A stretch of 38,367 nt of DNA from a virus (taxonomy: Duplodnaviria > Heunggongvirae > Uroviricota > Caudoviricetes). The DNA is taken from IMG/VR virus record IMGVR_UViG_2713897190_000002. One strand, given 5' to 3'. The notes below the pieces were generated by a model. It worked only from the letters and a program-made list of their open reading frames with translations, had not been told where the DNA came from and ran no database searches. The translations under genes were made by a program, and so were the position numbers. Shown in pieces: positions 29,623 through 36,819 of this stretch. Every line of letters starts with the position of its first letter. Within the stretch, counting starts at the first letter, position 1.

Positions 29623-29913
29623 TCATCTTTTAACTCCATATACCGCCAATATCCGTTTCATCGTGGCACTCTGGCGACACTCCTTAAAAATCAAATTCGT
29701 GCTCACCTTTCCTTCCCATTCTTCTCTGGTAGCGAACCGATAATACACCGTTCGCCAGACCTTACCATCAACGACCAGGATTCCTGCCCGCGGCATTTTA
29801 GCCGCAGCCTGATTTATGCTGGTTACGGTTGCACCTGTTACCGCGGCAACGTCCTGCGCACAGAAGTTCTTATGAGTCCCCAAGTAATGAATAATTGCCT
29901 CTTTGCCCGTCAT
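29623..29913 (-). CDS. ren: Ren protein
   Basis: 96 aa; MTGKEAIIHYLGTHKNFCAQDVAAVTGATVTSINQAAAKM... matches lambda Ren; start overlaps the P stop. Confidence 0.85.
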   Translation of the reverse strand: MTGKEAIIHYLGTHKNFCAQDVAAVTGATVTSINQAAAKMPRAGILVVDGKVWRTVYYRFATREEWEGKVSTNLIFKECRQSATMKRILAVYGVKR

Positions 29914-33003: not shown

Positions 33004-33561
33004 TTGGCAAAAATAGATGATTATCAGCCAAGCCAAGTAGAAGTTGATAAAGTACTTTATTGTAAAAAAATAGTTAACTTTTCTGGCGTTAAATGGAAAC
33101 AGAAACCAAGTCGCTCTGATATGTGGCTACAAGCCCATATCATCCCCTTGGATGAGGATTGTATACCTATACAAGGGCTAAAGTTTGAACTGAAATGGAA
33201 ACCAGATCAGGATTCAGAACCTGATGACCCGATTTCTTACCCTAAAATAAATATTATTGCTTTCTATCATAACAAGAGGGTTTTCGCGGTAGATACCTAT
33301 CACTTTGACAAACACACGAATAGTTACAAGGTCGATCATCCGAAGTACCAAGATATCATTTACGGTGCTCACTACCATGTATACTATGAAGAAGCTGGAT
33401 ACTATAGTGATAGAATAGCGTTTCCAATCGAAGATGACATAAACCCAGATGACCTGGTAGGGTATTGGAATTACTTCTGTAAACATCTGAACATAACTTA
33501 CTCTGGGAGAATACCTTTACCGCTTGAAGATGAGTCGGGGCAAATGGGGTTTGGAATATGA
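33004..33561 (+). CDS. unknown protein A (185 aa), first gene of the two-gene cargo in the rexAB slot
   Basis: ORF about 40 nt downstream of cI on the same strand; apparent TTG start (next in-frame ATG at codon 40); AT-rich; Tyr/His/Asp-rich; no motif recognised; its stop overlaps the start of gene B. Confidence 0.6.
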   Translation: MAKIDDYQPSQVEVDKVLYCKKIVNFSGVKWKQKPSRSDMWLQAHIIPLDEDCIPIQGLKFELKWKPDQDSEPDDPISYPKINIIAFYHNKRVFAVDTYHFDKHTNSYKVDHPKYQDIIYGAHYHVYYEEAGYYSDRIAFPIEDDINPDDLVGYWNYFCKHLNITYSGRIPLPLEDESGQMGFGI

Positions 33562-34310
33562 TGTGCTCAACAGTGATCTCACAACTAGGTTTCGAATGCC
33601 ATCCAATAGGCAAGACCTTGAGAATTATCAGTCCATTCACTTACTGTGATGATGGAGAGCATGTCGGTGCCTTTATCCGTGAAGTCAATGGTAGGTATTT
33701 AGTTAGTGACAGATGCGATGCCTTAATGAATATGGAGGCAAGAGGGATCTCGCTTACCAAAAAACGACTTGATGAGATACGACAATTACTGCTTAAAGAA
33801 GGCGCAGAACTCAATGCTCGAGGAGAAATCATTGCTTGGGCAACAGAAAAGGATGTCGGTGCGATTACATCGAACATAATTAGAGCTGGTATACTCGCAT
33901 CAACTTTGTCGTTAGACTGGTATCAGCCAGTTCAAGCTGAAAAGTTTGAAAGTATGGTTATTGATTATCTATATCACACAGAGCTTAGAGACGCACTTTC
34001 TCTTCGTGAAAACGTATATGGCTTGAGTGGACATCAAATTACCGTCCCTGTAACAATAAAAACCGACATACCTAAATACGTTTTTACATCAAGCGTGAAA
34101 CACGGAGGAAGCTGGAATAGTGCTTACTCATTGCTTGGGAAACTAATTGATCTTAAAGCTTCAAGTGAGGAGTATAACAACAGATTTGTTGTTATAGACA
34201 GCGAAGCAATTGGTGATCAAATGCAACAACTCTCCTTACTCTTCCATGAATCAAGCCAAGTTCTACCATTCTCCAAAAGAGAGACTTGGGTTAAGAGACT
34301 TGCAGCATAA
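33558..34310 (+). CDS. unknown protein B (250 aa), second gene of the two-gene cargo in the rexAB slot
   Basis: ATG overlapping the stop of gene A; AT-rich; followed by a rho-independent terminator; no motif recognised. Confidence 0.65.
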   Translation: MMCSTVISQLGFECHPIGKTLRIISPFTYCDDGEHVGAFIREVNGRYLVSDRCDALMNMEARGISLTKKRLDEIRQLLLKEGAELNARGEIIAWATEKDVGAITSNIIRAGILASTLSLDWYQPVQAEKFESMVIDYLYHTELRDALSLRENVYGLSGHQITVPVTIKTDIPKYVFTSSVKHGGSWNSAYSLLGKLIDLKASSEEYNNRFVVIDSEAIGDQMQQLSLLFHESSQVLPFSKRETWVKRLAA

Positions 34311-34315
34311 TACAA

Positions 34316-34341
34316 CCCGGCCTCAGCGCCGGGTTTTCTTT
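34316..34341 (+). terminator. rho-independent terminator after the cargo operon
   Basis: Hairpin CCCGGCCTCAGCGCCGGG followed by TTTTCTTT immediately after the gene B stop. Confidence 0.6.
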
Positions 34342-34746: not shown

Positions 34747-35019
34747 ATGTCCAGAAAAACAGAATTTAAAGGCACCGCAGCTTCTCGCCGTAGAGCTCGT
34801 CGCGCAAATCTGCAAAGTCAGGAGGCGATCAGCTCCGACAAGCTACACAGGCCAACCCCTTCACGAGTGGTCTTGCAATGCAAGCTCAAACCAGCAATGA
34901 GAGCAGAAGTGATAACTCTGACAACGTTGACCAGAAAATATGAAGGTTCAACTTGTCTTCCGAACGTAGCTCTTTACGCGGCAGGCTACCGGAAATCAAA
35001 ACAACTGACGGCGAGATGA
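34747..35019 (+). CDS. N: antitermination protein N (P22 gene 24 / phage 21 type)
   Basis: 90 aa from the ATG with GGAGG upstream; Arg-rich motif GTAASRRRARRANLQ; C-terminus VALYAAGYRKSKQLTAR resembles P22 gene 24 as recalled; the track ORF is extended upstream. Confidence 0.8.
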   Translation: MSRKTEFKGTAASRRRARRANLQSQEAISSDKLHRPTPSRVVLQCKLKPAMRAEVITLTTLTRKYEGSTCLPNVALYAAGYRKSKQLTAR

Positions 35020-35035
35020 TAAATTCATTTGCTAA

Positions 35036-35617
35036 TTACTTGTTTTTGCCATGCTTATCCTGAGCGATAAGTTCATCCATAAGGCTGTCTGCCTTCCCGG
35101 CAAACCTAATGTAGCACTCATGTCTATAGCTTTCAGGGATAACGAAACGGTCGGTATCAGGATATCCAACAGCAGGAGGCCTTCGAACGAGGAGTCCTTT
35201 TTTGAGCAATGAAATTGATTCATGAGCGCCCTTTTCCGTTTGTAGCTGGTTATTAGCGGCTACAGCGAATGCCAAATACGCTCTTTCTCCAAGAGTTAAC
35301 GAATCAAACAAATCTTGCACATATTTTTCTTCTTTAGATTTGCGCTTCTGAGCAGCGAATACCTCAATTCTTTCAGTCACAGCGTGATAAGCGGAATTAA
35401 CAACGCCGTTAAGCACATAGCTAACGCAAAACAACAGGATGTAATACATCCAGTAATGAGGAAGGATTTCTGGACTATGCAGGTTTATCCATTCTTTTAC
35501 GCTTACCGGCATAACAATAATCAATATGATCAGGATGATTAGCATATGAATCAACTGTTTAAGTGTCATTCCTTGCAGGAAAAAATGCATTAGTTCCTGC
35601 CACCATGAGTTGTTCAT
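35036..35617 (-). CDS. sieB: superinfection exclusion protein SieB-like (membrane)
   Basis: 193 aa; N-terminal TM segments (LIHMLIILIILIIVMPV, YWMYYILLFCVSYVL); convergent with N, as lambda sieB is; recalled similarity to lambda SieB. Confidence 0.6.
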   Translation of the reverse strand: MNNSWWQELMHFFLQGMTLKQLIHMLIILIILIIVMPVSVKEWINLHSPEILPHYWMYYILLFCVSYVLNGVVNSAYHAVTERIEVFAAQKRKSKEEKYVQDLFDSLTLGERAYLAFAVAANNQLQTEKGAHESISLLKKGLLVRRPPAVGYPDTDRFVIPESYRHECYIRFAGKADSLMDELIAQDKHGKNK

Positions 35618-35830
35618 CGGCGTTTCTCTTTTGCTCTCTGTAGGGGTGAATAGAGTTTATCCGATTTCTCGTTGTAGGGGTACACGAGAACCACCGAGCC
35701 TGATGTGGTTAAAAGACAGGCACAATCTTTACTACCGCAATCCACTATTTAAGGTGATATATGGAAGAAGAATTTGAAGAGTTCGAAGAGCATCCTCAAG
35801 ATGTGATGGAACAATACCAGGACTATCCGT

Positions 35831-36031
35831 ATGACTACGACTATTGATACAAATCAATGGTGTGGACAATTCAAACGATGCAATGGATGCAAGCTGCAAT
35901 CGGAATGCATGGTTAAGCCTGAAGAAATGTTTCCTGTAATGGAAGATGGGAAATATGTCGATAAATGGGCAATACGAACGACGGCAATGATTGCCAGAGA
36001 ACTTGGTAAACAGAACAACAAAGCTGCCTGA
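35831..36031 (+). CDS. ral: Ral-like restriction alleviation protein
   Basis: 66 aa, MTTTIDTNQWCGQFKRCNGCKLQSECMV...; length, Cys motif and position next to sieB fit lambda Ral as recalled. Confidence 0.55.
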   Translation: MTTTIDTNQWCGQFKRCNGCKLQSECMVKPEEMFPVMEDGKYVDKWAIRTTAMIARELGKQNNKAA

Positions 36032-36213
36032 TAGTGGCCTTTATTTTTGGCATAAATAACAGAATAAACACTGCACTGTGTATTCATTCCAACGAGTGAA
36101 TACACGGAGCAATGTCGCTCGTAACTAAACAGGAGCCGACTTGTTCTGATTATTGGAAATCTTCTTTGCCCTCCAGTGTGAGGGCGATTTTTTATCTATG
36201 AGGATATGAATAG

Positions 36214-36582
36214 ATGTCAAACATCAAAAAATACATCATTGATTACGACTGGAAAGCATCAATAGAAATTGAAATTGACCATGACGTAATGACAGAGGAA
36301 AAACTTCACCAGATTAATAATTTCTGGTCAGACTCTGAATACCGACTCAATAAACACGGCTCTGTATTAAATGCTGTATTAATCATGCTGGCGCAACATG
36401 CTCTGCTTATAGCAATTTCAAGCGACTTAAATGCATATGGTGTTGTGTGTGAGTTCGACTGGAATGATGGAAATGGTCAGGAAGGATGGCCTCCAATGGA
36501 TGGTAGTGAAGGAATAAGAATTACCGATATCGATACATCAGGAATATTTGATTCAGATGATATGACTATCAAGGCCGCCTGA
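36214..36582 (+). CDS. ea10: Ea10-like early protein
   Basis: 122 aa, located between ral and cIII as lambda ea10 is; identity by recall only. Confidence 0.5.
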   Translation: MSNIKKYIIDYDWKASIEIEIDHDVMTEEKLHQINNFWSDSEYRLNKHGSVLNAVLIMLAQHALLIAISSDLNAYGVVCEFDWNDGNGQEGWPPMDGSEGIRITDIDTSGIFDSDDMTIKAA

Positions 36583-36654
36583 GCGCGGCGTTACCGCATA
36601 CCAATTACGCTTCACTCGAGGCGTTTTTCGTTATGTATAAATAAGGAGCACACC

Positions 36655-36819
36655 ATGCAATATGCCATTGCAGGGTGGCCTGTTGCTGGCTGCCCTTCCG
36701 AATCTTTACTTGAACGAATCACCCGTAAATTACGTGACGGATGGAAACGCCTTATCGACATACTTAATCAGCCAGGAGTCCCAAAAAATGGATCAAACAA
36801 TTATGGCTATCCAGACTAA
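36655..36819 (+). CDS. cIII: CIII protein (FtsH inhibitor)
   Basis: Found by manual translation (not in the track): [54 protein letters not shown], 54 aa, matches lambda CIII; AGGAG Shine-Dalgarno. Confidence 0.85.
   Translation: MQYAIAGWPVAGCPSESLLERITRKLRDGWKRLIDILNQPGVPKNGSNNYGYPD

What the first reader, a model, noticed from the sequence alone, without database searches (positions are those of the whole stretch)
35036..35617. SieB-like membrane protein convergent with N
This 193-aa membrane protein sits where lambda carries sieB, a superinfection-exclusion/abortive-infection gene, convergent with N. Together with the cargo in the rex slot it would give the immunity region two exclusion functions.
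Basis: partly seen in the sequence, partly recalled or inferred. Interest (0 to 1): 0.35.

Follow-up and report, generated by a model that had tools for sequence, protein, structure and literature searches.

The report
Known P22-type sieB exclusion gene
This is an intact copy of the long-known prophage gene sieB (the phage P22 version, not the reference lambda version), which makes infected cells abort the growth of rival phages; it is common in E. coli and already annotated, so the finding is correct but ordinary.

Summary
The ORF is real: 35036..35617, minus strand, 193 aa, 16 bp from the stop codon of N and convergent with it. It is SieB: Pfam PF14163 at E=9e-22, PHROG 1301 over its full length at 1e-121, and 82% identity to the experimentally studied P22 SieB. 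To reference lambda SieB it is only about 21% identical (pairwise E=0.022), although a profile comparison shows homology (96.8%, E=2.6e-10). It is therefore the P22-type allele sitting in lambda's sieB slot.

The P22 regulatory anatomy is conserved. This covers the promoter and RNA-start region, the in-frame internal Esc start (Met25, invariant in 22 diverse homologues), and the region matching the P22 antisense sas RNA (+ strand 35613..35738), which covers the SieB start codon but not the Esc start.

The identical DNA occurs in phages ev017 and PhiR57_1. The allele is present in 577 of 5,426 complete E. coli genomes, where RefSeq already names it SieB.

New but modest observations:
- The N-terminal 24 residues and the membrane hairpin are nearly invariant, while the cytoplasmic domain diverges to about 20% identity.
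- That domain gives only sub-significant MarR-like winged-helix matches.

Verdict: supported, already known, low interest.

The parts
35036..35617 (-). sieB coding sequence (193 aa incl. Met1; stop codon at 35036-35038), P22-type allele
   Evidence: ORF. Pfam SieB E=9e-22, 77.7 bits against a cut-off of 26. PHROG 1301 residues 1-193 of 193, E=1.2e-121. 82% identity to P22 SieB. 100% identical in phages PhiR57_1 and ev017, where it is annotated SieB.
35036..35545 (-). nested in-frame esc reading frame (residues 25-193, 169 aa), the inhibitor of SieB in P22
   Evidence: P22 records annotate esc starting 72 nt (codon 25) into sieB. The window has an in-frame ATG at 35545. Met25 is invariant in 22 homologues down to 38% identity and aligns with Met27 of lambda SieB. 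The product itself was not observed here.
35654..35684 (-). equivalent of the annotated P22 sieB promoter (PsieB)
   Evidence: P22 feature at 29690-29720, mapped through alignment A1. 52 of 53 bases identical to P22 over 35648-35700. Not picked up by the generic sigma-70 consensus scan.
35647..35647 (-). equivalent of the mapped P22 sieB RNA start site
   Evidence: P22 misc_feature 'sieB RNA start site' at 29727, mapped through alignment A1.
35613..35738 (+). region equivalent to the P22 antisense sas RNA; overlaps the sieB 5'UTR and the first 5 nt of the SieB coding sequence (35613-35647), but not the Esc start codon (35543-35545)
   Evidence: The 127-nt P22A-sas sequence from PMC13397905 Table 2 aligns with 4 substitutions and 1 indel. 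Its predicted fold is no more stable than shuffled sequence (z=-0.47). No + strand promoter consensus lies upstream.
35639..35681 (-). two copies of ACCCCTACA (35673-35681 and 35639-35647), 34 bp apart, in the promoter and at the RNA start
   Evidence: 2 matches in the window against 0.14 expected. The same pair with the same spacing occurs in P22, reference lambda, PhiR57_1 and L005. Role unknown.
34747..35019 (+). antiterminator N gene (90 aa), convergent partner; pL transcription through N runs antisense across all of sieB
   Evidence: Pfam N_peptide E=9.7e-33 on the longer ORF. Start taken from the PhiR57_1 annotation. 40% identical to P22 gp24.
35761..35847 (+). orf28 (28 aa), identical to lambda orf28; left neighbour together with ral (35831-36031)
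   Evidence: Translations are identical. Ral Pfam E=1.7e-48.

Best explanation
The ORF is the P22-type sieB gene of a lambda-like prophage.

What follows from homology with P22, where these steps were shown:
- In the lysogen the gene is transcribed from its own weak promoter, against the direction of the repressed pL operon.
- It yields full-length SieB, an inner-membrane protein.
- When certain other lambdoid or P22-like phages superinfect, the cell's macromolecular synthesis stops midway through their lytic cycle. This is abortive infection, not a block to DNA entry.
- The same reading frame also yields Esc (residues 25-193) from an internal start. Esc antagonises SieB.
- A phage carrying this cassette protects itself by making the antisense sas RNA. 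sas pairs with the SieB ribosome-binding site and start codon but leaves the Esc start free, so translation switches from SieB to Esc.

Inference from this work:
- The near-invariant 24-residue N-terminal peptide plus the two-helix membrane hairpin is the effector module.
- The variable cytoplasmic C-terminal domain is the part that recognises the invading phage.
- Esc, lacking the N-terminal peptide, works as a dominant-negative partner, much as the two products of the lambda S gene antagonise each other.
For: Identity:
- Pfam SieB E=9e-22; PHROG 1301 full length, 1e-121.
- 82% identity to P22 SieB.
- Profile homology to lambda SieB, 96.8%, E=2.6e-10.
- All 116 database homologues carry PF14163, and NCBI names them SieB.

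Position:
- Between N and orf28/ral, convergent with N, as in lambda and P22.
- Two relatives with only about 20% identity in the C-terminal domain sit in the same place.

Regulatory anatomy:
- Promoter and RNA-start region 52/53 identical to P22.
- Esc Met25 invariant in 22 of 22 sequences.
- sas region 96% identical to the sequenced P22 sas RNA, with its 5' end on the SieB start codon.
- Third-codon positions are identical in all four compared loci at 17/25 sites for codons 1-25 but 12/47 for codons 26-72 (Fisher p=0.00085). This indicates an RNA-level constraint running from the promoter up to the Esc start.

Phenotype in P22:
- The SieB/Esc/sas switch is summarised in PMC10002423 and PMC13397905. 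SieB-Esc is listed for lambda in PMC3224144.

Modularity:
- Residues 1-24 are 96% identical and residues 76-193 are 19-21% identical in P0107/P0108.
Against: - No experiment was done on this allele. The C-terminal domain is only about 77% identical to P22's, so the range of excluded phages may differ.
- The generic promoter scan finds neither PsieB nor a sas promoter.
- Whether sas has its own promoter or is processed from the pL transcript could not be checked, because the primary papers are not held.
- The sas-equivalent RNA has no unusual predicted stability.
- PADLOC has no model that matches SieB.
- The biochemical mode of killing is unknown in the literature read here.
- The effector/sensor split and the antiholin analogy are my inference.
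- The prophage carries an IS insertion in bet, so it may be defective. That does not by itself affect a lysogen-expressed gene.
Confidence: 0.88

Rival explanations
1. The gene is an intact SieB homologue whose target range, or even whose activity, has changed. The variable C-terminal domain, or residence in an IS-damaged prophage in E. coli, could mean it excludes a different set of phages from P22 SieB, or none that matter.
For: The C-terminal domain is 75-77% identical to P22-type Salmonella proteins, while the N-terminal part is 96-100% identical. The family's C-terminal domain diverges to about 20%. bet is cut by an IS21-family element.
Against: The reading frame, promoter region, Esc start and sas region are all intact. 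The same allele at >=99% identity is kept in 307 E. coli records and in inducible phages ev017 and PhiR57_1, which argues for maintained function.
Confidence: 0.08
2. The protein blocks DNA entry at the membrane, as a true superinfection-exclusion protein such as P22 SieA or T4 Imm does, instead of aborting infection after entry.
For: It is a small inner-membrane protein with a two-helix hairpin, like many entry blockers. Its family name says 'superinfection exclusion'.
Against: For the 82%-identical P22 protein, the block comes midway through the lytic cycle with arrest of macromolecular synthesis, and it is explicitly contrasted with SieA, which blocks injection. A self-protection device that acts on translation after the phage has begun to express genes (Esc/sas) makes sense only for a post-entry mechanism.
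Confidence: 0.03
3. The ORF is an incidental frame antisense to the pL transcript and has no protein function.
For: It lies entirely antisense to the N-antiterminated pL operon transcript.
Against: It shows strong protein-level conservation across Escherichia, Salmonella, Citrobacter, Yersinia, Leclercia and others, with synonymous change downstream of codon 25. It hits a curated Pfam family. The C-terminal domain gives a confident fold, pLDDT 89.
Confidence: 0.01

Closest known systems
Salmonella phage P22 SieB / Esc / sas (Susskind et al. 1974; Ranade & Poteete 1993, cited via PMC3224144 and PMC13397905)
   Same: - 82% protein identity over 191 residues.
- Same length and same position, convergent with the N-type antiterminator.
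- Near-identical promoter, RNA start, SieB start, Esc start at codon 25 and sas region.
- The C-terminal domain model superposes on the predicted P22 SieB structure Q38660 with TM 0.95.
   Different: - The host is E. coli and the phage backbone is lambda-like, with orf28 identical to lambda's, ral, ea10, and a different N that is 40% identical to gp24.
- The C-terminal domain differs at about a quarter of its residues.
- There are 4 substitutions and 1 indel in the sas region.
Reference phage lambda SieB (NP_597779, NC_001416 34482..35036)
   Same: - Same slot between N and orf28/ral, and same orientation.
- Same Pfam family, with profile-level homology over 154 columns and the internal Met conserved.
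- The upstream control region is almost identical up to the RNA start, including both ACCCCTACA motifs.
   Different: - Only about 21% identical; pairwise BLAST E=0.022.
- The DNA diverges immediately downstream of the RNA start, so the 5'UTR that sas would pair with is different.
- Not recovered by fold search of the viral library.
- PHROGs places the two in separate families (1301 versus 6399).
Lambda S holin / antiholin dual-start motif (S105/S107; listed in PMC3224144)
   Same: One reading frame gives two membrane proteins that differ only at the N-terminus, and one antagonises the other. This is a resemblance in how it works, not in ancestry.
   Different: No sequence relationship was tested or claimed. 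In S the longer product is the inhibitor and the difference is 2 residues. Here the shorter product is the inhibitor, the difference is 24 residues, and the choice is set by an antisense RNA.
Lambda RexA/RexB abortive-infection system
   Same: A prophage-expressed, immunity-region, membrane-associated abortive-infection function. This is a functional analogy resting on established knowledge.
   Different: Rex is a two-protein system in the cI operon. There is no sequence similarity, and in this window the rex slot holds two unrelated genes.

Membership tests
SieB (Pfam PF14163, superinfection exclusion protein B) | Score above the curated family threshold | tested here: met
   77.7 bits against a gathering score of 26, E=9.1e-22, residues 24-146. 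P22 and lambda SieB score 101.4 and 103.5 bits in the same test.
SieB, P22 type (PHROG 1301) | Full-length similarity to the experimentally defined P22 SieB | tested here: met
   156/191 identical, no gaps, E=5e-111. PHROG 1301 residues 1-193 of 193, E=1.2e-121.
SieB, lambda type (PHROG 6399; NP_597779) | Close similarity to reference lambda SieB | tested here: not met
   Pairwise 21% identity over 82 residues, E=0.022. PHROG 6399 only E=5e-4. Homology is visible only at profile level. It is a member of the wider family but not of the lambda-type subfamily.
SieB | N-terminal membrane anchor followed by a soluble domain | tested here: met
   The hydropathy peak is 3.03 at residues 22-40. A second segment at 55-73 peaks at 1.53, which is borderline. 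A basic cluster at 91-95 follows. Model helices are at 19-35 and 55-105. Topology was not determined experimentally.
SieB | Location in the early-left operon region next to the N-type antiterminator gene, on the opposite strand | tested here: met
   The 16-bp gap to the N stop makes the genes convergent. The arrangement is the same in lambda, P22, PhiR57_1, L005 and L006.
SieB/Esc dual-product gene | In-frame internal start that gives Esc | tested here: met
   There is an ATG at 35545, which is codon 25 as in the P22 annotation. It is invariant in 22 of 22 homologues and aligned with lambda Met27. This is met at the sequence level only; the product is not testable with these tools.
SieB/Esc/sas switch | Antisense sas RNA covering the SieB translation start but not the Esc start | tested here: met
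   Window 35613-35738 (+) matches the sequenced P22 sas RNA with 4 substitutions and 1 indel. The Esc ATG lies 68 nt outside the overlap. Whether the RNA is expressed in this phage was not testable.
SieB | Own promoter active in the lysogen | tested here: inconclusive
   The sequence is 52/53 identical to the P22 region that contains the annotated PsieB, but the generic sigma-70 scan does not call it. Activity is not testable here.
SieB | Abortive-infection phenotype against heteroimmune phages, and self-protection of phages that carry the cassette | not testable with these tools
   Known for P22 only, from literature.
MarR-type winged-helix domain (considered for the C-terminal domain) | Significant structural similarity to solved MarR-family structures | tested here: inconclusive
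   Nearly all top PDB hits are MarR-family regulators, but the best E-value is 0.011, TM is 0.40-0.45, and no hit reaches E<=0.001, whether the query is the full-length model or the domain-only model. There is no Pfam MarR/HTH hit.

The most novel reading that the evidence does not exclude
SieB may be a modular sensor-effector. An almost invariant N-terminal amphipathic peptide plus a membrane hairpin would be the killing module, silenced by Esc, which lacks that peptide. It would be fused to a rapidly diversifying, membrane-tethered, MarR-like winged-helix domain that recognises a nucleic acid or protein of the invading phage. Alternative sieB alleles would be exchanged as cassettes under one conserved promoter marked by a paired ACCCCTACA motif. 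None of this is excluded by the evidence, but the fold match is below significance, and the biochemical steps are conjecture.
Probability: 0.2. Interest if true: 0.5.

Novelty: already known. Interest (0 to 1): 0.12.

Why it matters
As an annotation it matters little. The gene is already called SieB in RefSeq and in phage records, and about one in ten complete E. coli genomes carries it.

It is useful as a correction: lambda-like coliphages commonly carry the P22-type allele, not the allele of the reference lambda sequence, so the experimentally dissected SieB/Esc/sas switch of P22 probably applies directly to them.

The molecular mechanism of SieB killing has, as far as the literature read here shows, never been worked out. 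The domain split seen here (invariant N-terminal peptide and membrane hairpin, variable cytoplasmic domain) gives a concrete design for domain-swap and truncation experiments.

Tried and rejected
- The two primary papers (Ranade & Poteete 1993, J Bacteriol PMC204922 and Genes Dev PMID 8339929) are not held. Details such as the origin of sas (own promoter or pL processing) rest on secondary sources and stay open.
- A literature search for the phages with identical DNA (ev017, ev207, PhiR57, PhiR11) returned only unrelated papers.
- The generic promoter scan found neither PsieB nor any + strand promoter for sas. Its single hit (- strand 35569..35541, overlapping the Esc ATG) is fewer than expected by chance (1 found versus 4.5 expected) and was not pursued.
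- Folding the sas-equivalent RNA gave z=-0.47 against shuffles, so no structural claim is made.
- Rfam has no family for it; the only window hit is the cIII thermoregulator.
- PADLOC has no profile that matches SieB.
- Foldseek against the PDB gave no significant neighbour for either the full-length or the domain-only model. The MarR resemblance is kept only as a lead.
- BFVD did not link the domain to lambda-type SieB.
- I considered whether the ORF should start at Met10, because many automatic gene calls give 184 aa. I kept Met1, because the P22 annotation uses it and residues 1-9 are nearly invariant.

Full report
**1. The observation**

The ORF listing gives an ORF at exactly 35036..35617 on the minus strand, 193 aa, with an ATG start.

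- On the plus strand the antiterminator gene N ends at 35019. The longer ORF gives Pfam N_peptide E=9.7e-33, and its start at 34747 follows the annotation of the identical phage PhiR57_1.
- The two genes are therefore convergent and 16 bp apart.
- The protein has one strongly hydrophobic segment (residues 22-40, Kyte-Doolittle 3.03) and a second, weaker one (55-73, 1.53). These are followed by a KRKSK cluster and a hydrophilic tail of about 115 residues.

**2. What it is**

Family and closest relatives:
- The protein passes Pfam SieB (PF14163) at 77.7 bits against a cut-off of 26.
- It matches PHROG 1301 from residue 1 to 193, E=1.2e-121.
- A 2.4-kb stretch around it is 100% identical to Escherichia phages ev017 and PhiR57_1, where the gene is annotated SieB.
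- Against the experimentally studied P22 SieB it is 156/191 identical, with no gaps.

Relationship to reference lambda SieB:
- Against the reference lambda SieB (NC_001416 34482..35036) pairwise BLAST gives only 21% identity over 82 residues, E=0.022.
- Both reference proteins belong to the same Pfam family.
- A profile of 22 P22-type sequences aligns with lambda SieB over 154 columns at 96.8% probability, E=2.6e-10.

So the window carries the P22-type allele in the slot where lambda has its own, very divergent, allele. Many natural 'Lambda_' isolates and Stx phages also carry the P22 type at about 91% identity.

The allele is common. 577 of 5,426 complete E. coli genomes have it at >=80% coverage, 307 records at >=99% identity, and RefSeq calls it 'super-infection exclusion protein B'. 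All 116 database homologues carry PF14163.

**3. Anatomy beyond the ORF**

P22 records annotate a sieB promoter, a mapped RNA start, and a nested product Esc that begins at codon 25.

- Aligning the window with P22 shows the promoter-to-start region is 52/53 identical. It places the promoter at 35684..35654 and the RNA start at 35647.
- The window has the in-frame ATG of Esc at 35545.
- This Met is invariant in 22 homologues down to 38% identity and aligns with Met27 of lambda SieB.

A 2026 RNA-seq study lists the 127-nt P22 sas RNA (PMC13397905).

- The window's plus strand 35613..35738 matches it with 4 substitutions and 1 indel.
- Its 5' end sits on the SieB start codon, so it is complementary to the SieB ribosome-binding region and 5'UTR.
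- The Esc start lies 68 nt outside that duplex.

At the DNA level, third-codon positions are identical in all four compared loci (window, P22, and two distant relatives) at 17 of 25 sites for codons 1-25, against 12 of 47 for codons 26-72 (Fisher p=0.00085). This points to an RNA-level constraint from the promoter to the Esc start, as expected for a translational switch.

Two copies of ACCCCTACA, 34 bp apart, sit in the promoter and at the RNA start.
- The window has 2 matches against 0.14 expected.
- The pair is kept with the same spacing in P22, lambda, PhiR57_1 and L005.
- Their role is unknown.

Reference lambda shares the upstream DNA almost base for base up to the second motif and diverges immediately after. 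The two alleles are therefore alternative cassettes under one promoter.

**4. How it most likely works**

Shown for P22 in the literature:
- The prophage expresses SieB.
- Superinfecting P22-like phages, but not P22 itself, suffer an arrest of macromolecular synthesis midway through the lytic cycle.
- sieB encodes SieB and its inhibitor Esc.
- The antisense sas RNA made by the infecting P22 blocks SieB synthesis while Esc continues.
- SieB-Esc is also listed for lambda.

Given 82% identity and conservation of every sequence element of that switch, the same scheme most likely applies here. This is an inference by homology; nothing was measured on this allele.

My own additions are inferences:
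- Residues 1-24 (absent from Esc) and the membrane hairpin stay 96% and about 75% identical in relatives whose C-terminal domain is only about 20% identical.
- This suggests an invariant membrane effector joined to a variable recognition domain, with Esc acting as a dominant-negative partner. In logic it resembles the two products of lambda S.
- Because pL transcription, once N is made, runs antisense through the whole of sieB, transcriptional interference probably adds to the switch.

Whether sas has its own promoter or is cut from the pL transcript could not be settled. No plus-strand promoter consensus is found, and the primary papers are not held.

**5. Structure**

- AlphaFold2 on a 22-sequence alignment gives mean pLDDT 77.7, low in the membrane part and about 90 in the C-terminal domain.
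- The domain alone (residues 76-193) gives pLDDT 89.1, pTM 0.75. Its layout is a long helix, a helix, a strand, a helix, two strands and two helices.
- Foldseek against the PDB returns almost only MarR-type winged-helix regulators. The best E-value is 0.011, TM is 0.40-0.45, and nothing reaches E<=0.001.
- The viral library returns P22 SieB itself (TM 0.95) and no significant other protein.
- The MarR-like reading is therefore only a lead.

**6.

The window is a lambda-like genome in reverse map orientation. Its order is tail, head, terminase, lysis, nin, P/O, cII, cro, cI, two cargo genes, N, sieB, orf28, ral, ea10, cIII, kil, gam, bet.

The two genes in the rex slot (33004..33561 and 33558..34310) follow cI on the same strand and end at a terminator-like hairpin at 34314..34335.
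- They match PHROGs of unknown function.
- They also match DUF6978 (below threshold) and DUF1828.
- They weakly match the two components of the PADLOC candidate system PDC-M24: A at E=4.8e-4, B at E=4.7e-10.

'Two exclusion functions in the immunity region' is thus plausible, but only one of the two (SieB) has a characterised relative.

**7. Comparison with what is known, and verdict**

The gene is a member of the SieB family, P22 subtype. It fails only the test of close similarity to the lambda subtype. It is already annotated as such in public records.

The finding is correct and ordinary: novelty 'already known', interest 0.12.

The small additions here are:
- the allele assignment;
- the mapping of esc, sas and the promoter;
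- the invariant-N/variable-C modularity;
- the cassette junction at the RNA start;
- the paired motif.

Noticed in passing
window 33004-34335 (+): The lambda rexA/rexB slot holds two overlapping genes of 185 and 250 aa. They lie directly downstream of cI on the same strand and end at a terminator-like hairpin (34314-34335). They match PHROG 2017 and 1960 (unknown function), DUF6978 (below threshold) and DUF1828, and weakly match both components of the PADLOC candidate defence system PDC-M24 (A: E=4.8e-4; B: E=4.7e-10). The same pair is present in phage PhiR57_1.
   Followed up: partly
window 37309-38367: The recombination gene bet is cut short (201 aa instead of the 261 aa in PhiR57_1). Identity to PhiR57_1 stops at 37897. 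An IS21-family IstB ORF follows (37963..38355, minus strand; Pfam E=3.7e-36, profile positions 117-235 of 238), and its upstream part runs off the window end. None of 5,426 complete E. coli genomes contains this junction. The prophage is therefore probably recombination-defective.
   Followed up: partly
window 35639-35647 and 35673-35681 (-): The 9-mer ACCCCTACA occurs twice, 34 bp apart, in the sieB promoter and at its RNA start, and nowhere else in the window (2 matches versus 0.14 expected). The same pair with the same spacing is found in P22, PhiR57_1, L005 and reference lambda, although lambda's SieB protein is only 21% identical. On the other strand it reads UGUAGGGGU twice inside the sas-equivalent RNA. 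Function unknown.
   Followed up: partly
window ~35639-35647; L001 1972-1985: The mosaic junction lies exactly at the sieB RNA start. Reference lambda and the window are almost identical from orf28 through the sieB promoter, and become unalignable immediately after the second ACCCCTAC motif. The P22-type and lambda-type sieB alleles therefore behave as exchangeable cassettes under one promoter. The GeneMark TTG start annotated for lambda sieB (34482) falls only 3 nt after that motif, which makes that start doubtful.
   Followed up: partly
window 35036-35617 (-); alignment A3: Across the P22-type SieB family, residues 1-24 and the membrane hairpin are nearly invariant (96% and about 75% identical). 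The C-terminal domain falls to about 20% identity in some relatives (P0107, P0108, P0112). Synonymous sites of codons 1-25 are also unusually conserved: 17/25 versus 12/47, p=0.00085.
   Followed up: yes
window 36642-36700 (+): The only Rfam hit in the window is the lambda cIII thermoregulator element (RF01804, 88.5 bits, E=1.8e-20), upstream of and overlapping the start of cIII.
   Followed up: no
window 34747-36582: This is a typical lambdoid mosaic. orf28 is identical to lambda's. ral and ea10 are lambda-like. sieB is P22-type. N is a third type, only 40% identical to P22 gp24, with the C-terminal LP.VALYAAG.RKSKQ.TAR motif shared.
   Followed up: partly
window 35437-35451 and 35541-35569 (-): Two features lie inside sieB on its own strand. 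One is a terminator-like hairpin (GGATGTATTACATCC followed by a T-rich tail). The other is the only sigma-70-like consensus hit of the region (ATGACA-17-TATGCT), which overlaps the Esc ATG. Promoter-like hits are fewer than expected by chance (1 versus 4.5), so both may be incidental.
   Followed up: no
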